64,000 bases of DNA from a virus (Duplodnaviria > Heunggongvirae > Uroviricota > Caudoviricetes): the IMG/VR virus record IMGVR_UViG_2684622670_000009, positions 20,476-84,475 of that record; one strand, 5' to 3'. This document shows, piece after piece, positions 11,466-50,039 of this stretch. Both the position numbers and the translations under genes were made by a program. Position 1 is the stretch's first letter, and the number at the start of each line of letters is the position of its first letter. The notes beneath the pieces were generated by a model that did not search any database, was not told the origin of the DNA, and saw only the letters and a program-made list of their open reading frames with translations.

Positions 11466-11482
11466 AGATTTATTAGAGCAAT
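11466..11482 (-). promoter_or_regulatory. C1 operator-like site (16/17)
   Basis: Reverse complement of agatttattagagcaat gives ATTGCTCTAATAAATCT. Confidence 0.45.
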
Positions 11483-25545: not shown

Positions 25546-25807
25546 TGGTTATCCCTCAATAAAAGTGACATATTTATTAGATTGCGGTGCCGGGTGCCTC
25601 CCGGTGACGTTAACCAGTTAACAATTAACGCCGGAATGTTTAATCATCAAGGAGGATTGTTTTAACTGTTCCGCGTGCGCTTAGCCGAATTCACCGCAAT
25701 GGTAAGAGCACTTGGCTGGCTGGGCGGCGATGACGCCTGTACGCATTTGGTGATCCGGTTCTGCTTCCGGCATTCGCTTAATTAGCCAAATACTCTTAAC
25801 GTTGCGC

Positions 25808-25894
25808 TGGTGGAGAGTAATGGAATCGAACCATCATCGCTTGCGCAATGGGACGGTTTTCAAGACCGCTTGAGCGCCATACTCCCTACTCTCC
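25808..25894 (-). tRNA. Class II tRNA-Ser-like gene (anticodon UGA), non-canonical D-arm
   Basis: 87 nt; perfect 7-bp acceptor GGAGAGT/ACTCTCC, anticodon loop CTTGAAA, long variable arm, T-arm GATGG-TTCGATT-CCATT, encoded CCA; positions 8 and 14 atypical. Confidence 0.5.
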
Positions 25895-26485: not shown

Positions 26486-26561
26486 TGGCGATGGTGGGTG
26501 GATTCGAACCACCGACCAGTTAGTTAACAGCCAACTGCTCTAACCGCTGAGCTACACCATC
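26486..26561 (-). tRNA. trnA: tRNA-Asn (anticodon GUU)
   Basis: 76-nt cloverleaf GATGGTGTAGCTCAGCGGTTAGAGCAGTTGGCTGTTAACTAAC...GGTGGTTCGAATCCACC CACCATC G CCA. Confidence 0.85.
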
Positions 26562-27231
26562 ACTTGCCGGGTACGTCTCCGGCGAGGGCTTCCACCTCCG
26601 TATGCTTTTCGGCGCACCGCGCCCTGGCTGCAATTCGGTAACAGGGGATGCATAACCCTGGCTTCCAGCGTGATTAGCGCTTTCAGCATGACGGGATATA
26701 CCCGTAAATTCGTGGAACTGTACCCAAAGTGCTGTTAAGCACCGCTGTTACGCTGAAAAGAAGACGCAACAGGAAAGGACGCTGACCAACAGATGGCCCC
26801 TTCTCGTTCATCTGGTTAATCACACCAGCGCCCTTACCTGTTGTGCCTCCCCGTTCCCTAATACACAGACGGGGACACTCTGCGGTCGATTTTTTGACGG
26901 GGGACGACTCATACCCCGTGGCGTCTGGCTTCTTAGGCCGCAGCCATCATCAGATCATCGTTTGCATTTACTTTAATGGTCAGTTTCTAAACCGCCGCAA
27001 AGTCGCTAACCATGACGAAAACCCTGAAAAAACGCCCACCCGAAGATGGGCAAACAGGATGTAAGCTCGTTACGCATTTCGGTATTGCCACTTAGGCGTA
27101 TGGTCAACCTGGCAACTCGGCGTCATGAGGGGGAAGGAGTCACTACCCCGCCATACTTGCCGCCGCGCCTGTCGCGGCTAACAGCTAAATCGCTCTATAA
27201 ATCACGATTCATTGAAACCATATTACACTAA

Positions 27232-27248
27232 TAAATTTATTAGAGCAA
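27232..27248 (-). promoter_or_regulatory. C1 operator (17/17 match)
   Basis: Reverse complement of aaatttattagagcaat equals ATTGCTCTAATAAATTT; overlaps dmt stop, within palindromic ctaataaatttattag. Confidence 0.55.
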
Positions 27249-30200
27249 TATAGCAATAACGTCATGAGCTACACCACGAGTGTTCCCCTTACAAGACACA
27301 GAACGTCTGGCAAAAAGAGGTTCCACTCTGAAGCCACTGTCTTGGTAAAGCTCCCTGATGTTTGGCGCACCACTATTAGTAATGAGGATCTTTGCACCTC
27401 GGCGATGAGCATCCATTAGCAGAGATACCAGGCGTTTTTGCTCTTCAAACTTAAAGTCATGACCGGAATAGTTTGTGAACCCCTCTGTATTGGGGAGCGG
27501 TTCATACGGAGGATCGCAAAAGATGACATCTCCTTCTCCGGCAGCTTCAATCACCGCTGAAAAATCACCACATACAAACTCAGAACGCCCTTCAGCACCG
27601 AGGAAGGCTTCCATCTCCTGTAATGGGAAATACGGAGTTTTATACTTCCCATAACCAACATTAAACTCACCGGCCTGGTTGTAACGCGTCAATCCGTTAA
27701 AACAATGTCGGTTCAGGAACAAAAACGCTGCTGCACGATGTAAATCATCATAGGCTTGTTTGTTAAACGCATTCCGTACTGCCAGGTATCCTTCCTGTGT
27801 GTTGTAGTCCTGGAAAAACCGATGCGCCAGAGTGATAAGTGAATGTCCCTCACGTTGCAGAGTCCTGTAAAAGTTAATCAGGTCAGCATTCACATCATTT
27901 AGCAGATTTTCTTGATATCCGGCATTTATGAAGACAGCTCCGCCACCAACGAAAGGCTCGATCAGGCGCTTTCCGTCAGGTAAATGCCTAAAGATTTGTT
28001 CAAGAACACCAAATTTTCCGCCGACCCATTTAAATATGGGACGGTCAAATTCTGCCGTTAGCTTAACTCTCCGTTCTGTTGCTTCATGATTTTTTGCCTG
28101 CTGATATGCAGCCTTAATAATCCGCTCACCAATCCATCGCATTACTGGTATCGCCATGCTATTGCCGATCGCTTTGTAACGCGGTCCGTCAGCTGCAAGC
28201 ATCGCGGCCTCTTCTTCGCTTAAATCTGGATAGTGATTGCGAAGGTATGCCAGTTCATCTGAAGTAACTTTTTTACGCTTTTCCGTCGGGATCAACGTAT
28301 GCCCATCAGGAAAACCTTGCAGTCTTTCACATTCGACAGGGGTAAGACGGCGGACAGCTACTGCTGCGTTTCCTACGTCATAGCAAACGGCTGTTGTATT
28401 TTTGGCCATTAAAGATGGTGAAGTATTCTTAGTTGCAGCATGTTGTGTACCGCTCATACGCTCAGGAAAAGCCAATGTAACAAGATGCTCATGGCTTTCT
28501 TGCTCACGTGCCCGCAATGTACCATGCCCTTCTGACCAAAAACCTGCTCCTGTGCTGCTAAAAACTGCAAGGTCAGTGGCATCTTTAAAGTCTCTCGCCT
28601 TTACTGTCGATGCGGTTTCATCGCCAATATATTCCCCAAATGCCGCCATCCTGAAAGCGTTTACGGCTTTCGTCGATTTCATACCGGGGGTAATGTCAGC
28701 GTGTAGGCATGGATTTAGGCTTTCGCCACTGATTGCAGCGCCATTTGCAATAATGGCGGAAGCGATTTCCTTCTTTTTTCGGCTCGGCGCAATATTCCGG
28801 CGCACGCCTTCGAACTCAAAAAGTACCGTTGCGGGATCGAGGTCTGTTCGAGCACTTGCGACAACAAACACGCGTCGGCGTCGTTGTGCCACTCCGAAGT
28901 ATTGGGCATCAAGGATTCTCCAGGCCACCTTTCGCTGCGGTCCATAAATACAACCACACTGCGGCCACTTTGGAGCATGGCAACCGGTTTTGCCATCCCA
29001 CCGCCAGAACGCGTTACTTTTTCCTGATTCAGGTCGATCACCTGGTTCAAATGGCGCATCTTCTCCAGCCAATCCGGCAAGGAAACATCCGAAGGCGTTA
29101 TCTGCCGATGACAAGACTCCTGGGACATTTTCCCAGACGATAACGGCTGGTTTGAGAAATGACTCAGCCCGTTTGTCGTCAATTGCATTTGCAAGCTCCA
29201 CATACTTTAAAGTTAGCGCGCCACGCTCATCATCAAGCCCACCACGTAATCCCGCGATACTGAATGCCTGACAGTTATGGACCACCGCACCATTGAGGAT
29301 ATAGGAATGATCACCTTCGACTTCTATGTTGTATACAGTATCTAGGCCTACCGATTTAAACTCTTTGACTGTTCGTAAAAGCATTCCATGAGCCAATCTT
29401 GATTTACGTGACAATTTCTGCGGGCAGATTGTTACCTGATAATAATTCCGTTGATTTACCACGCGATCCTCGATCACTTTTTTGGGCTCAACTTCAATAA
29501 AGCTGACCGAAGAAACATAACCACAAGTCTGTGACACCCCCGCAACGCCCCAAGCAAGCGCAGGACTAACACTATTAATTCTAAATCCCGCTTTACCACT
29601 TGGTGTCCCATCAGTATCAAGATAGCCTTGTAAAAACACATGACGCAATGGATGCGACATCACCCATGCAGGGATACGCTTAGCATGGCTTAACTCGCCA
29701 AAATGTTCATTAAGCCAATTGGCATAACACGTATCATTCAAGGTTACTTTGATGCTCCCTCGGATTTCTCTTGCCACGGAAAATATGTTTTCTGGTATGC
29801 GACAATGAAACTTTCTCAATTTCTGGCAATTTATGCCAAAAACAACCGCCTTCTTAGATTTACCTCTCCATCTCCTAATATATCCATCGCCAACATAAGC
29901 GCCCGCAAGATACATAGCCTGTTCTTCAGACAAGAACCGAGAACAAATATCTGGAGATGCAATATTGAAATTAGTTAGAGCGCACCATTGATATCCTGGC
30001 ATATCACATGCTGCTCGCCATTCCGGTTCAGACAACAACTCTCTCTTAAAATATGTGCCATTTTTCCGGGTGTTTTGGGCTTTCCACCGAACAGCCAGGA
30101 AGGGATGGTCATTGGTTGTTCTTATACCTAAAGGCTGCCCAACGGCATTAAGTAACCCCGTATTAGCTATTTTTGAACCAACTCTTTTTACTTGTTGTAA

Positions 30201-30527
30201 CCGCCCGAGATGACTGACTACGTAATCGCCAGGGCAAACATCTTCTATTGGTTTATAACCATTTTTACAAAGAACCATATGCCCCGCGGTAAAACATGGT
30301 GTTCCCCCGACGAGCACGTCAGGGGATTCGATTTCCCCAGCCAGGACTTTTTTGGCAAGTTTAGTCATGTCGCCAAGGTTGGCGACATGGGGCCAGCGGT
30401 GCGCAAGAACGGCCGATGGAAAAGACTCGATTTCAGCAAACCACGCCGGACGCATACCCAACGGTTCCCAGGCAATACTCGCGGCTTCAATTCCACTGCA
30501 AACAGATCCATAGCACAGCTCTTTCAC
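27240..30527 (-). CDS. dmt: Bifunctional DNA methyltransferase (C5-cytosine domain plus Dam-like N6-adenine domain) interrupted by an intein
   Basis: 1095 aa; C5-methyltransferase motifs (ENV in [25 protein letters not shown]) and Dam-like FKWVGGK, DPPY; motif IV GGTP|CQAFS split by a 341-aa insert. Confidence 0.85.
29274..30296 (-). mobile_element. Intein with LAGLIDADG homing-endonuclease domain (residues 78-418 of Dmt)
   Basis: Starts [16 protein letters not shown] (block A), TTNDHPF (block B), [12 protein letters not shown] and [11 protein letters not shown] (LAGLIDADG x2), ends [21 protein letters not shown] followed by the catalytic Cys. Confidence 0.8.
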
Positions 30528-31432
30528 TGCTTAGCCTCTCCACCAAGGGCATTTACCAGAGCATCAACCAGGCACGAAATTTCACTGGTCAACAGGAAGA
30601 AATCTGCGTCCAGTCGCTGCGCAACATCTTCACTATCAATATCAGAGTTCTGCTCAAGCAATTCATCCGCAAATTTGACGCTGGTAAGGCTGAAGTTATG
30701 GTCCAGTGTAAATTTAATGCGGTTCTGCCAGTCGAGTGCCAACTTAGTGACGAGCTTGCCAGCTTCCAGGTGTGTGGAAATTTCATCGCTTCCCAAATCC
30801 TGCTTTTTCACTCGGGCAATACCGCCATCCTCAAGCACTGCCTTAAGTTCTGCCGCATCCCCCATTTGAAATCCCTGTGGAGCACTACCATCACGTACCC
30901 AGTCGGTCAGCGTTAATTCAATGGGATTTTCAACACTTAGGGGAACAACAGGAAGAGAACCCAGAGACTTACGCATAAGTGCGAGCATATCCTCTGCCTG
31001 CCGCGCGCAGGCATTGATATAGATACGTTTAGTTGAACGATCGTAGATCGCCTGGATAACAGAAAACTTTGAAAAAGCCCGTGGCAGAAGAGAATGCAGA
31101 ACTTCGTCTTTCAGGGAATCCTTTTCTGTTTTCTTCAGTTTACGCGCTTGTTCTTGCTCAAGTTTTTCAATTTTTTCTTGAATAGCTCGCTGGATAACCG
31201 GCAGGGGAAGAATTTTTGTTTCGCGCTTTGCTTCAACAAGGATAAAACCATTTCCATGCATAGCGATAACTTCGGAATTATCACCAAATGGCGATACAAA
31301 ACCGAACTTGGCCATATCCTGACTACCGCATGGCGTGAAAAGGATCATTTTCTTTTTATCTTCTAAGTCGGTCAGATCCGCCTCACGAGAAAGTTTATAA
31401 ATAGTAATGTTTTTCCAGTGCTTAAACATGTT
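30524..31432 (-). CDS. hrdC: Recombination-associated protein RdgC homolog
   Basis: About 303 aa from internal ATG ([13 protein letters not shown]...); long stretches match E. coli RdgC from memory ([32 protein letters not shown]). Confidence 0.85.
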
Positions 31433-31706
31433 GTAACCCTTGAATATCAACCACAGAAAGCTCGTCTTTGTAGAAAAAGGCCAAGTTGTGGCCCCCCCTC
31501 GTTTGAGCGTATGAGCTGGGACCAATTTCGTTCTTCCAGACAAATGGCTTCAAATCCGTACGGCGAAGCATAAAAACGCGATTTGTTCCGCTCTGATTCC
31601 CAATGAGGCAAAAGCCTTCTTTCACCTTGATAGCCTGCAAGTTGTCGAGTTCACCGCTGGTTACACGGCTATCGAACTCCTTGCGGCTTATTAGCTCCAT
31701 CTGCAT
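31422..31706 (-). CDS. Hypothetical protein upstream of hrdC (uhr-like position)
   Basis: About 94 aa from internal ATG with GGAG Shine-Dalgarno; C1-operator-like site about 75 bp upstream. Confidence 0.4.
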
Positions 31707-31777: not shown

Positions 31778-31795
31778 CAATATTTATTAGTGCAA
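31778..31795 (-). promoter_or_regulatory. C1 operator-like site (15/17)
   Basis: Reverse complement of aatatttattagtgcaat; upstream of the uhr-hrdC-dmt gene string. Confidence 0.4.
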
Positions 31796-31877
31796 TTTTA
31801 TAGTAAGTAAACGCCATACAGACCACAAATAACCTAAGTTAAAATAACGAAAATCAGAGCAAATCATTGGTGATGAC

Positions 31878-47773: not shown

Positions 47774-47843
47774 TTTTTCTCCAAATTTGCATCAACCTTC
47801 AATCACCAGCTCGAAATGGTGATTCTTTGCACTTAGAAAACGA

Positions 47844-47860
47844 AATTTATTAGAGCAAAT
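47844..47860 (-). promoter_or_regulatory. C1 operator (16/17), Op53-like, upstream of kilA-repL
   Basis: Reverse complement of aaatttattagagcaaa. Confidence 0.55.
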
Positions 47861-49679: not shown

Positions 49680-49889
49680 AGTTACGGCCTCATTCGTAGG
49701 TTTAACAACCTGCGCCCCGCTGCTAAACGGGTGGCAGGACGTGACGGGGTTAGCAGACTGGCACGAATGAAACCAGCAGGCCGAAGCCTCCCCATCACGC
49801 CCCACCATAATTCGGGCGTAACGTGGTTTTACGGACACAAAAATACCGCAATATCGGATATCTGCGGTTGTCCGCATTCGTATTCAGGC

Positions 49890-49960
49890 TGCTAAACCCG
49901 GTCGCAGAATTTGCTACGACGGCGGAACTATAAGCCTGAACGATTAAAAGGTCAATATGA
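49890..49960 (-). ncRNA. c4: Candidate c4-like antisense RNA (stem-loop between P51-like promoter and icd); boundaries approximate
   Basis: Stem TCAGGCT...AGCCTGA enclosing about 45 nt; location as expected for the immI c4 RNA; not verified. Confidence 0.3.
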
Positions 49961-49986: not shown

Positions 49987-50003
49987 AAAATACAAATTTA
50001 TTA
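49987..50003 (-). promoter_or_regulatory. C1 operator (16/17), Op51-like, at the immI promoter
   Basis: Reverse complement of aaatttattagagcatt. Confidence 0.55.
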
Positions 50004-50039
50004 GAGCATTAATTGTATGATAAATACACAAATGGATCT

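What the first reader, a model, noticed from the sequence alone, without database searches (positions are those of the whole stretch)
29274..30296. LAGLIDADG intein at the catalytic Pro-Cys motif of the Dmt C5-methyltransferase domain
The 1095-aa ORF 27240..30527 has C5-methyltransferase motifs (ENV, QRRRR, motif X) and a Dam-like C-terminal domain (DPPY). Its motif IV GGTP-CQAFS is interrupted by a 341-aa element: it starts with Cys (CFTAGHMVL...), carries a TxxH block, two LAGLIDADG motifs and a terminal ...VVHN, and is followed by the catalytic Cys. Splicing would restore [12 protein letters not shown] and leave a roughly 754-aa enzyme. I do not recall an intein described in a phage DNA methyltransferase; that novelty is an impression, not a checked fact.
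Basis: partly seen in the sequence, partly recalled or inferred. Interest (0 to 1): 0.8.

Follow-up and report, generated by a model that had tools for sequence, protein, structure and literature searches.

The report
Homing intein in P1-type dmt
The DNA methyltransferase gene of this P1-like phage-plasmid is interrupted, exactly at the codon of its catalytic cysteine, by a standard self-splicing protein element (an intein) that carries its own homing endonuclease; it is real and found in about a third of such genes in E. coli, but nobody has annotated it, and it is an ordinary member of a known kind.

Summary
Observation confirmed exactly. ORF 27240..30527 (-) encodes a 1095-aa P1-type Dmt, with an N-terminal C5-cytosine methyltransferase domain and a C-terminal Dam domain. 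Residues 78-418 (window 29274..30296, 1023 bp) are an in-frame insertion between Pro and Cys of motif IV (GGTP|CQAFS).

Evidence that it is an intein:
- It passes the curated thresholds of Pfam Hint_2, Pfam LAGLIDADG_3 and NCBIfam intein_Cterm.
- A confident AlphaFold model (pLDDT 93) matches PI-SceI and other endonuclease-bearing inteins.
- Reference P1 dmt lacks exactly these 1023 bp.
- Removing it in silico gives a 754-aa protein, and the C5-methylase profile scores rise.

Distribution:
- The insertion is present in 152 of about 491 dmt genes in complete E. coli genomes, in 133 PLSDB plasmids, in phages RCS47 and Ro157c2YLVW, and in a laboratory P1vir stock.
- All 40 copies I examined are intact (pN/pS 0.23), with no change at eight key residues.
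- Homologous inteins (24-54% identity) sit at the same P|C site of C5 methylases in many other viral contigs.

Best explanation: a class-1 intein that splices to restore Dmt and spreads by endonuclease-driven homing. Splicing and cleavage are inferred, not shown.

Inteins in phage DNA methylases, C-5 included, are already reported. I found no paper on this P1-family one. It is a new member of a known kind.

The parts
27240..30527 (-). dmt precursor ORF (1095 aa; GTG start overlapping the hrdC stop, GTGA)
   Evidence: Pfam DNA_methylase + MethyltransfD12. 96% identical to dmt of phages RCS47 and Ro157c2YLVW.
30297..30527 (-). N-extein, residues 1-77 (motif I region through GGTP of motif IV); Pro(-1) codon CCA at 30297-30299
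   Evidence: CCA in all 40 occupied alleles examined, CCT or CCC in all 80 empty sites.
29274..30296 (-). Intein, 341 aa (1023 bp), class-1 type with an embedded LAGLIDADG homing endonuclease domain
30279..30296 (-). Block A, CFTAGH; Cys1 (precursor Cys78) is the first splicing nucleophile
   Evidence: C1, F2, A4 and G5 are invariant among nine homologues of 29-52% identity.
30099..30119 (-). Block B, TTNDHPF (Thr61-x-x-His64)
   Evidence: T61 and H64 invariant
29880..29915 (-). First LAGLIDADG motif, [12 protein letters not shown] (acidic residue Asp137)
   Evidence: G132, D137 and G138 invariant
29661..29687 (-). Block [10 protein letters not shown] (Lys206)
   Evidence: K206 and W211 invariant; aligned to PI-PkoII KRIPEFV
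29604..29639 (-). Second LAGLIDADG motif, [12 protein letters not shown] (acidic residue Asp229)
   Evidence: T228, D229 and G230 invariant in the ~50% identity group
29274..29339 (-). Blocks F and [23 protein letters not shown] (penultimate His340, terminal Asn341)
   Evidence: TIGR01443 above its cutoff; aligned to the C-terminus of the Spl DnaX mini-intein
29271..29273 (-). +1 Cys codon (TGT). It would be both the second splicing nucleophile and the catalytic Cys of C5-methyltransferase motif IV (PCQ).
   Evidence: The catalytic role of the motif IV Cys is established knowledge of C5 methyltransferases.
27240..29273 (-). C-extein, residues 419-1095 plus stop (rest of the C5 domain with ENV, QRRRR and GNSMAIPV; Dam domain)
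27252..28043 (-). Dam-type N6-adenine methyltransferase domain (precursor residues 829-1092, DPPY)
   Evidence: TIGR00571 252 bits, PF02086 193 bits
30524..31706 (-). Upstream genes of the same operon: hrdC (30524-31429) and uhr (31422-31706)
   Evidence: Same order, lengths and overlaps as in P1
31780..31796 (-). C1-repressor operator-like site upstream of uhr, at the place of P1 Odmt (Op68)
   Evidence: 2 mismatches to ATTGCTCTAATAAATTT; 12 such sites in the window against 0.39 expected; P1 annotation
27222..27249 (.). Divalent C1 operator pair at the 3' end of dmt, at the place of P1 Oban (Op72ab)

Best explanation
The 1023-bp insert is a canonical class-1 intein with an embedded LAGLIDADG homing endonuclease. 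It lies between Pro77 and the catalytic Cys of motif IV in the C5-methyltransferase domain of a P1-type Dmt.

Shown here:
- It has the sequence blocks and the fold of endonuclease-bearing inteins.
- It is a clean presence/absence polymorphism in P1-like phage-plasmids.
- It belongs to a family of inteins that occupy the same P|C site in C5 methyltransferases of many phages.

Inferred, step by step:
1. dmt is made as a 1095-aa precursor from the C1-repressed uhr-hrdC-dmt operon, so mainly after derepression.
2. Cys78 undergoes an N-S acyl shift.
3. The thioester is passed to Cys419.
4. Asn418 cyclises and releases the intein.
5. An S-N shift leaves a 754-aa Dmt with GGTPCQAFS restored. The C5 domain can therefore only become active after splicing. 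The C-terminal Dam domain may not need splicing.
6. The free 341-aa intein acts as a site-specific endonuclease on intein-less dmt alleles when two P1-like genomes share a cell.
7. Recombinational repair copies the intein and adjacent extein bases into the cut allele (homing).
For: Intein identity
- Pfam Hint_2, Pfam LAGLIDADG_3 and NCBIfam intein_Cterm all score above their curated thresholds.
- phmmer against PDB sequences finds the Spl DnaX mini-intein C-terminus and the PI-PkoII endonuclease domain.
- The AlphaFold model from a 16-sequence alignment has pLDDT 93.3 and pTM 0.90. Its top 16 PDB matches are all endonuclease-bearing inteins: PI-SceI at 1.9e-18, then TliVMA, PhoVMA, PI-PfuI and PI-TkoII.

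Clean insertion and restoration
- There is a single 1023-bp gap relative to P1 AF234172.
- After in-silico splicing, PF00145 rises from 105.7 to 126.2 bits, with one stretch covering profile positions 5-119. TIGR00675 rises from 99.4 bits, below its 100.65 cutoff, to 118.9.

Maintenance
- 40 of 40 examined copies are intact 341-aa ORFs. They form 21 DNA haplotypes with pN/pS 0.23.
- None has a change at C1, T61, H64, D137, K206, D229, H340 or N341.
- Most of these residues (C1, T61, H64, D137, K206, N341) are invariant in homologues of 29-52% identity; D229 and H340 are invariant within the ~50% identity group.

Mobility
- In complete E. coli genomes, 152 carry the intein and 339 carry a contiguous empty site.
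- The intein occurs in two dmt length forms (1095 and 1013 aa) and in two N-side sequence backgrounds.
- On the C side, the point where the flank switches to the P1-reference type lies at different distances from the intein.
- The base next to the intein (CCA against CCT/CCC) is linked to it in every allele examined.
- Intein copies are on average 99.1% identical, while the C-exteins are 94.7% identical.
- GC content is 42.8% in the intein against 48.9% in the exteins.

Same-site family
- In IMG/VR, relatives of 24-54% identity sit at GGTP|C, GSPP|C, YSFP|C, GGFP|C and HGSP|C of C5 methylases.
- The same holds in Metarhizobium album.

Viability
- A laboratory P1vir stock carries the intein.
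Against: - No experiment: neither splicing nor DNA cleavage has been shown for this intein.
- Block F has Asn where many class-1 inteins have Asp (VYNIEV against VYDIEV in Spl DnaX). This Asn is conserved through the whole family.
- The Hint_2 score is only just above its gathering score, and Pfam Intein_splicing is below its own.
- The flank haplotype seen with the intein (GGAACACC...) is also common among empty sites, 30 of 80. The flanks alone therefore do not prove co-conversion.
- dmt is mosaic, and some extein segments are as conserved as the intein. Ordinary homologous recombination between P1-like plasmids could therefore produce part of the pattern.
- pN/pS of 0.23 is moderate, and most amino-acid changes fall in the endonuclease part, 14 of 18.
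Confidence: 0.8

Rival explanations
1. The element is a splicing-competent intein, but its endonuclease is no longer active or is rarely used. The patchy distribution then comes from ordinary homologous recombination among the highly mosaic P1-like phage-plasmids, plus vertical descent, not from homing.
For: - dmt is visibly mosaic, with blocks of 83-100% identity between alleles.
- The intein-type flank haplotype is common among empty alleles, 30 of 80.
- Most amino-acid polymorphism lies in the endonuclease part, 14 of 18 changes.
- One homologue (P0009) has Asn in place of the second LAGLIDADG Asp, so endonuclease decay does occur in this family.
Against: - Both LAGLIDADG acidic residues and Lys206 are unchanged in all 40 copies, and no copy has a stop or a deletion of the endonuclease domain.
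- A useless 200-aa domain would be expected to decay or be lost, as in the 141-aa mini-intein P0023 at the same site.
- Occupancy is 31%, with copies of at least 98.5% identity (98.6-99.9% to the window's copy), across Escherichia coli, E. albertii, E. fergusonii, Salmonella and Shigella.
Confidence: 0.15
2. The element is a non-splicing relic. It stays in the protein and permanently inactivates the C5 domain, and Dmt then works only as a Dam methylase through its independent C-terminal domain.
For: - The Dam domain is separate and intact.
- The P1 annotation itself only says Dmt 'perhaps' methylates C5, so loss of C5 activity might be tolerated.
- Asn replaces the common block-F Asp.
Against: - All four splicing nucleophile or assisting positions (Cys1, His340, Asn341, Cys+1) and block B Thr/His are retained in all 40 copies. 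Cys1, Thr61, His64, Asn341 and Cys+1 are also retained in relatives down to 24-30% identity. His340 is invariant in the ~50% identity group but replaced in a few relatives (P0009 and the Actinobacteria-type P0018, P0019, P0021). That is not expected without selection for splicing.
- The C5 extein motifs ([16 protein letters not shown]) are intact in intein-bearing alleles.
Confidence: 0.04
3. The element is not an intein at all. It would be an in-frame group I intron with a LAGLIDADG ORF, a bacterial intein-like (BIL) domain, or a chance insertion.
For: - LAGLIDADG endonucleases are also encoded in group I introns.
- A weak structural match to a BIL domain exists (2lwy, E 5e-4).
Against: - The reading frame is continuous with both exteins.
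- The element begins and ends with intein blocks A and G.
- The whole-length structural matches are inteins.
- Rfam finds no intron in the window.
- BIL domains do not carry endonuclease domains and are not found at catalytic sites of conserved enzymes (established knowledge).
Confidence: 0.01

Closest known systems
PI-SceI (yeast VMA1 intein) and the archaeal VMA, PI-PfuI and PI-TkoII inteins
   Same: Two-part architecture: a Hint splicing domain split by a LAGLIDADG endonuclease domain. Cys1, His-Asn and Cys+1 chemistry. Insertion at a catalytic or substrate-binding site of a conserved enzyme. These are the best structural matches to the model.
   Different: Only 11-17% sequence identity. 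The element here is shorter (341 aa against 454-537 aa). The host protein is a phage C5 DNA methyltransferase rather than an ATPase, polymerase or RNR. Block F has Asn instead of Asp.
Inteins of actinobacteriophage DNA methylases (Kelley et al. 2016, PMC5050341; Genes 2023, PMC9957025; bioRxiv 10.1101/2025.01.02.630785)
   Same: LAGLIDADG-bearing inteins in orphan phage DNA methyltransferases, with patchy distribution and signs of horizontal transfer. The 2025 survey lists C-5 methylases (IPR001525) among the intein hosts.
   Different: Those are in phages of Actinobacteria, and the best-described cases are in N6/N4 methylases. This one is in the bifunctional C5+Dam Dmt of enterobacterial P1-like phage-plasmids. 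I did not compare its sequence with the actinophage C-5 inteins, which I did not have. Relatives with an Actinobacteria-type extein (ASPE|C...N|CTNHS; the one named record is from Pseudonocardia) are about 30% identical.
Same-site inteins in C5 methyltransferases of other viral contigs and bacteria (Mannheimia haemolytica, Metarhizobium album, IMG/VR contigs)
   Same: Homologous inteins of 24-54% identity, inserted between the Pro and the Cys of motif IV, with the same blocks.
   Different: Different host methylases, most of them without a Dam domain. Some have decayed: a truncated host gene in Mannheimia, and a 141-aa mini-intein without an endonuclease (P0023).
Intein-less P1 Dmt (AAQ14041, reference P1 c1-100 mod749::IS5)
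   Same: Same gene, same operon, and the same 754-aa product after conceptual splicing. The exteins are 94-97% identical at the DNA level.
   Different: It lacks the 1023 bp. It has CCT instead of CCA at Pro(-1), and Trp instead of Gly in motif IV (VWGTPCQ).

Membership tests
Intein (class 1, Hint fold) | N-terminal splicing region with a Cys/Ser at position 1 (block A) and Thr-x-x-His (block B) | tested here: met
   CFTAGH at residues 1-6 and TNDH at 61-64. Pfam Hint_2 28.5-29.3 bits against a gathering score of 28.4. C1, T61 and H64 are invariant in homologues.
Intein (class 1, Hint fold) | C-terminal splicing region ending in His-Asn, followed by a Cys/Ser/Thr at +1 | tested here: met
   ...GAVVHN|C. 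NCBIfam TIGR01443 25.9-28.9 bits against a cutoff of 15.6. Aligned to the Spl DnaX mini-intein C-terminus.
Intein (class 1, Hint fold) | In-frame insertion in a conserved host protein that is absent from close homologues, and whose removal restores the host sequence | tested here: met
   A single 1023-bp gap relative to P1 dmt. 80 empty sites in IMG/VR and 339 in E. coli genomes. PF00145 and TIGR00675 scores rise after in-silico splicing.
Intein (class 1, Hint fold) | Hint (horseshoe beta) fold that brings the two junctions together | tested here: met
   AlphaFold model with pLDDT 93.3. Foldseek finds PI-SceI, TliVMA, PhoVMA, PI-PfuI and PI-TkoII at E 1.9e-18 to 2e-9, and also mini-inteins. 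I could not measure the junction geometry itself.
Intein (class 1, Hint fold) | Autocatalytic protein splicing that yields ligated exteins and a free intein | not testable with these tools
   Needs expression followed by western blot or mass spectrometry.
LAGLIDADG homing endonuclease (intein-encoded, two-motif monomer) | Two LAGLIDADG motifs, each ending in an acidic residue followed by Gly | tested here: met
   LAGAYVGDG (Asp137) and LQGYLDTDG (Asp229). Pfam LAGLIDADG_3 33.2 bits against 22.5, in two stretches. Aligned to PI-PkoII.
LAGLIDADG homing endonuclease (intein-encoded, two-motif monomer) | Alpha-beta-beta-alpha-beta-beta-alpha fold, repeated twice | tested here: met
   The model's central domain matches I-SceI, I-AniI and I-OnuI-type enzymes as well as the endonuclease domains of inteins.
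LAGLIDADG homing endonuclease (intein-encoded, two-motif monomer) | Site-specific cleavage of the intein-less allele | not testable with these tools
   Needs a cleavage assay on the empty dmt site.
Homing genetic element | Presence/absence polymorphism at one precise site among close relatives, with near-identical copies in diverged backgrounds | tested here: met
   152 occupied against 339 empty in E. coli genomes. Intein 99.1% against C-extein 94.7% mean identity. Two dmt length forms and two N-side backgrounds.
Homing genetic element | Co-conversion of flanking markers that decays with distance from the insertion | tested here: inconclusive
   The base at -1 is linked to the intein in every allele examined, and the C-side switch points vary. 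However, the intein-type flank is also common among empty alleles (30 of 80), and the gene is mosaic.
C5 cytosine DNA methyltransferase (PF00145 / TIGR00675), host protein | Motif I, motif IV (PCQ), motif VI (ENV), motif VIII (QRR) and motif X in order | tested here: met
   PF00145 at 126.2 bits and TIGR00675 at 118.9 bits (cutoff 100.65) for the spliced sequence. The unspliced protein falls just below the TIGR00675 cutoff.
Bacterial intein-like (BIL) domain | Hint domain without an endonuclease, in variable non-conserved proteins, not at a conserved catalytic site | tested here: not met
   It has an endonuclease domain and sits at the catalytic Cys. Only a weak partial structural match to 2lwy (E 5e-4).

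The most novel reading that the evidence does not exclude
This is an actively homing intein now spreading through the P1 family of phage-plasmids in Enterobacteriaceae. It occupies about 31% of dmt genes and is present in a laboratory P1vir stock. Its splicing also acts as a post-translational gate on the C5-methyltransferase activity of Dmt: the +1 splicing nucleophile is the enzyme's catalytic Cys, and both junction residues are redox-sensitive cysteines. The Dam domain of the same polypeptide would work regardless. That would give a natural, genetically tractable system in E. coli and P1 for intein homing and for conditional splicing of a phage methyltransferase with a proposed anti-restriction role.
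Probability: 0.12. Interest if true: 0.6.

Novelty: new member of a known kind. Interest (0 to 1): 0.4.

Why it matters
P1 is one of the oldest model phages and the standard transduction tool, and E. coli K-12 is commonly used as an intein-free host (my own knowledge).

- A natural, apparently functional intein is present in about 3% of complete E. coli genomes and in at least one laboratory P1vir stock. It would be a convenient system to study homing, co-conversion and splicing in a well-understood host.
- It also has a practical side. The intein pushes the protein below NCBI's dcm model cutoff (99.4 against 100.65 bits). PGAP therefore names these proteins only 'Dam family' methyltransferases, and a one-base frameshift turns the gene into three pseudogene fragments in one record.
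- Annotating the intein would correct hundreds of records. It would also make clear that the C5 domain is interrupted at its active site until splicing occurs.

Beyond that, the element is conventional.

Tried and rejected
- Single-sequence AlphaFold prediction of the intein failed (pLDDT 32.8). I replaced it with a prediction from a 16-sequence alignment.
I repeated it with the closer set A3.
- A distant-mode blastn of the intein against plasmids found nothing beyond the 98.6-99.9% identical P1-type copies. DNA-level searching therefore gave no clue to the donor.
- Literature searches combining intein with bacteriophage P1, P1-like, Dmt, phage-plasmid, punavirus, RCS47, SJ46, cytosine-specific or C-5 cytosine found nothing on this element. 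Two searches were rejected because a term was too short.
- I rejected the group I intron reading: the frame is continuous, intein blocks are present, and Rfam finds no intron.
- I rejected the BIL-domain reading: an endonuclease domain is present and the insertion is at a catalytic site.
- I first read the shared flank haplotype of intein-bearing alleles as a co-conversion tract. The larger IMG/VR sample showed the same haplotype in 30 of 80 empty sites, so I downgraded that argument. Only the -1 base and the variable C-side switch points remain as support.
- I did not run the search of protein representatives, because family size was already clear enough.
Full report
**1. The observation**

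The minus-strand ORF 27240..30527 is real. It has 1095 codons and a GTG start that overlaps the stop of the upstream gene. Pfam finds a C-5 cytosine methylase domain (PF00145, E 4e-30, in three pieces) and a D12-class N6-adenine methylase domain (PF02086, E 8e-57).

- It starts with Cys at residue 78 (CFTAGHMVL).
- It contains TNDH and two LAGLIDADG-type motifs ([12 protein letters not shown] and [12 protein letters not shown]).
- It contains [15 protein letters not shown] and ends in GAVVHN at residue 418.
- It is followed by CQAFSIAG.

It is 341 aa, or 1023 bp, at window 29274..30296. The joined exteins make 754 aa.

**2. Is it an intein?**

Four independent kinds of evidence agree.

- Profiles. 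Hint_2 scores 28.5-29.3 bits (gathering score 28.4) and LAGLIDADG_3 33.2 bits (22.5). NCBIfam intein_Cterm TIGR01443 scores 25.9-28.9 bits (cutoff 15.6), and there are weaker hits to the intein parts of intein-containing RNR, GyrA, DnaB and RFC models. PHROGs matches an intein-containing anaerobic RNR.
- Solved structures by sequence. The C-terminal 44 residues align to the Spl DnaX mini-intein, and the middle aligns to the PI-PkoII endonuclease domain, including KRIP and the second LAGLIDADG motif.
- Fold. A single-sequence AlphaFold run failed. With a 16-sequence alignment the model reached pLDDT 93.3 and pTM 0.90. Its 16 best PDB matches are all endonuclease-bearing inteins: PI-SceI at 1.9e-18, then TliVMA, PhoVMA, PI-PfuI and PI-TkoII. 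Free-standing LAGLIDADG enzymes and mini-inteins follow.
- Comparison with intein-less alleles. Reference P1 dmt (AF234172, 754 aa) aligns with a single gap of exactly 1023 bp at this place.

Removing the segment in silico raises PF00145 from 105.7 to 126.2 bits, with one continuous stretch over profile positions 5-119. It raises NCBIfam dcm (TIGR00675) from 99.4 bits, just under its 100.65 cutoff, to 118.9.

**3. Context**

The window is a P1-like (Punavirus) phage-plasmid. Positions 20001-45000 match phage RCS47 over 95% of their length at 96.4% identity. The intein is 99.9% identical to copies in Escherichia albertii IncY plasmids.

As in P1, dmt is the last gene of uhr-hrdC-dmt. A C1-operator-like site lies upstream of uhr (31780-31796), and the divalent ban operator lies at the 3' end of dmt (27222-27249). 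By analogy with P1, the precursor would be made mainly after loss of C1 repression. This is inference.

**4. Distribution**

- Phage records: the same intein is in RCS47, vB_EcoM-Ro157c2YLVW and OP279344. OP279344 is the genome of a laboratory P1vir stock.
- PLSDB: 133 plasmids of Escherichia coli, E. albertii, E. fergusonii, Salmonella and Shigella, all 98.6-99.9% identical.
- Complete E. coli genomes: 152 of 5426 carry it. A spliced-junction query finds dmt in 493 genomes, and 339 of these have a contiguous, intein-less site. Occupancy is therefore about 31%.

No record annotates it as an intein. PGAP calls the protein a 'Dam family' methyltransferase. In one record with a one-base frameshift the gene is split into three pseudogene pieces, one of them named 'LAGLIDADG family homing endonuclease'.

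**5. State of the copies**

- Forty copies are all intact 341-aa ORFs: the window, 11 fetched records and 28 IMG/VR and GTDB loci.
- They form 21 DNA haplotypes and 16 protein variants, with pN/pS 0.23.
- None has a change at Cys1, Thr61, His64, Asp137, Lys206, Asp229, His340 or Asn341.
- Most amino-acid changes lie in the endonuclease part, 14 of 18.

**6. Signs of movement**

- The intein occurs in two length forms of dmt, 1095 and 1013 aa. These differ in a variable middle region.
- It occurs in two different N-side sequence backgrounds.
- Intein copies are on average 99.1% identical, while the C-exteins they sit in are 94.7% identical, with a minimum of 90%.
- The intein has lower GC than the exteins, 42.8% against 48.9%.
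- The base immediately before the intein is A (Pro codon CCA) in all 40 occupied alleles and T or C in all 80 empty sites.
- On the C side, most occupied alleles share one haplotype for about 130 bp. One switches to the P1-reference type within 23 bp of the intein, and another after about 105 bp.

These features fit homing with co-conversion tracts of variable length. I must qualify that. The 'intein-type' flank is also the second most common haplotype among empty sites (30 of 80). dmt is mosaic, and some extein blocks are as conserved as the intein. Ordinary recombination therefore cannot be excluded as a contributor.

**7. Wider family**

A search of 5.8 billion proteins with the intein alone found relatives of about 50% identity in other C5 methylases, for example in Mannheimia haemolytica. 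It found relatives of about 30% identity in Pseudonocardia, in further records with the same Actinobacteria-type extein motif, and in Parvibaculum.

In IMG/VR, besides the P1-type copies, 25 full-length loci carry relatives of 24-54% identity. In every one that is complete, the intein lies between the Pro and the Cys of motif IV of a C5 methylase: GGTP|C, GSPP|C, YSFP|C, GGFP|C or HGSP|C.

Among GTDB species representatives it was found in two Escherichia genomes, in Metarhizobium album (an 850-aa C5 methylase next to phage-like genes) and in a Deferribacteres MAG.

A 141-aa mini-intein without an endonuclease occupies the same site in one protein (P0023). The Mannheimia host gene is truncated right after the intein. 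The motif IV P|C position is therefore a recurrent intein site, and the window's element is one branch of that family.

**8. Mechanism**

What is shown is the anatomy, the fold, the polymorphism and the conservation. What is inferred is the standard class-1 pathway:
1. N-S acyl shift at Cys78.
2. Trans-thioesterification to Cys419.
3. Cyclisation of Asn418, assisted by His417.
4. S-N shift, giving a 754-aa Dmt with GGTPCQAFS restored, plus the free 341-aa endonuclease.

Cys419 is also the nucleophile that C5 methyltransferases use to attack C6 of the target cytosine (established knowledge). The C5 domain therefore cannot work before splicing. The separate Dam domain may work without it.

The free intein would then cut empty dmt sites in co-resident P1-like genomes, and repair would copy it in.

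One departure from many class-1 inteins is Asn instead of Asp in block F (VYNIEV). It is conserved across the family, so I read it as a family trait rather than a defect.

**9. Comparison with the literature**

Inteins in phage DNA methyltransferases are not new:
- Kelley et al. 2016 list 11 in mycobacteriophage N6/N4 methylases (PMC5050341).
- A 2023 paper analyses a LAGLIDADG intein in an actinophage methylase family (PMC9957025).
- A 2025 survey lists DNA methylases N-6/N-4 and C-5 (IPR001525) among previously reported intein hosts (bioRxiv 10.1101/2025.01.02.630785).

I found no paper that mentions an intein in P1, P1-like phage-plasmids or Dmt. The library does not cover most subscription journals, so this is absence of evidence only.

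**10. Verdict**

The finding is correct in observation and in interpretation. It is a well-formed, probably active, unannotated intein. It belongs to a known kind, sits in a known class of host protein, and has many same-site relatives. Its interest is moderate and rests on three points: a classic model phage family, high occupancy in E. coli phage-plasmids, and a direct annotation consequence. I rate novelty as 'new member of a known kind' and interest at 0.4.

Noticed in passing
L001 (AF234172) dmt codon 74; window 30306-30308 is the equivalent Gly codon: The reference P1 c1-100 mod749::IS5 Dmt has Trp in motif IV (VWGTPCQ). The window and every other allele I looked at have Gly (VGGTPCQ). 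This could be a strain-specific change next to the catalytic Cys of the C5 domain.
   Followed up: partly
window 27240-30527 and RefSeq records such as NZ_CP117591.1, NZ_CP012497.1 (L008): PGAP names intein-bearing Dmt only 'Dam family site-specific DNA-(adenine-N6)-methyltransferase'. With the intein in place, the dcm model TIGR00675 scores 99.4 bits, just under its 100.65 cutoff. In pCFSAN004178P_01 a 1-nt deletion in the G run before the intein splits the gene into three pseudogene features, one called 'LAGLIDADG family homing endonuclease'.
   Followed up: yes
window about 28355-28713 (ORF positions about 1815-2173): dmt exists in two length forms: 1095 aa as here and in RCS47, and 1013 aa in OP279344 and several plasmids. 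They differ by indels and about 60% identity in a middle segment between the C5 motifs. This may be a target-recognition region with a different specificity. Both forms carry the intein.
   Followed up: partly
window 24761-24836, 25808-25894, 26486-26561 (all minus strand): Downstream of dmt the window has tRNA-Met(cat), tRNA-Ser(tga) and tRNA-Asn(gtt). P1 and RCS47 have Asn+Thr at this place, and some plasmids have Asn+Tyr+Thr. The tRNA cassette is therefore variable among P1-like elements.
   Followed up: no
window 25583-25698 (-): Rfam match to the gammaproteobacterial sRNA STnc100 (50.3 bits, gathering score 47; partial, model positions 31-147 of 206). It lies between the tRNA genes, near where P1 is annotated with a dicF-like region.
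   Followed up: no
window 49727-49812 and 49881-49933 (-): C4 antisense RNA and its a1/b1 target sites (Rfam RF01695 at 71.9 bits, RF03163 at 56.2 bits). This is the P1-type immI immunity region.
   Followed up: no
whole window, e.g. 11466-11482, 27233-27249, 47843-47859, 49994-50010: Twelve matches (up to 3 mismatches) to the C1 repressor operator consensus ATTGCTCTAATAAATTT, against 0.39 expected by chance. This fits a P1-type dispersed C1 regulon.
   Followed up: no
P0011 / L054, L055 (Mannheimia haemolytica-type): A 47-48% identical intein with intact blocks sits in a C5-methylase gene that ends about 20 residues after the intein (VVHN|CQSDKGG...stop). The cluster is seen on 578 contigs. 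An apparently intact intein is therefore found in a decayed host gene.
   Followed up: no
P0023 (306-aa protein): A 141-aa mini-intein without an endonuclease domain lies at the same GGTP|C site of a C5 methylase. Its N-terminal splicing part is 56% identical to that of the window's intein. It is a likely endonuclease-loss derivative within the family.
   Followed up: no
L006 (NZ_CP060916.1 pEC18-3): An intein-less dmt is interrupted by an IS100 (IS21-family) insertion about 760 bp into the gene, so dmt can be lost without loss of the plasmid.
   Followed up: no
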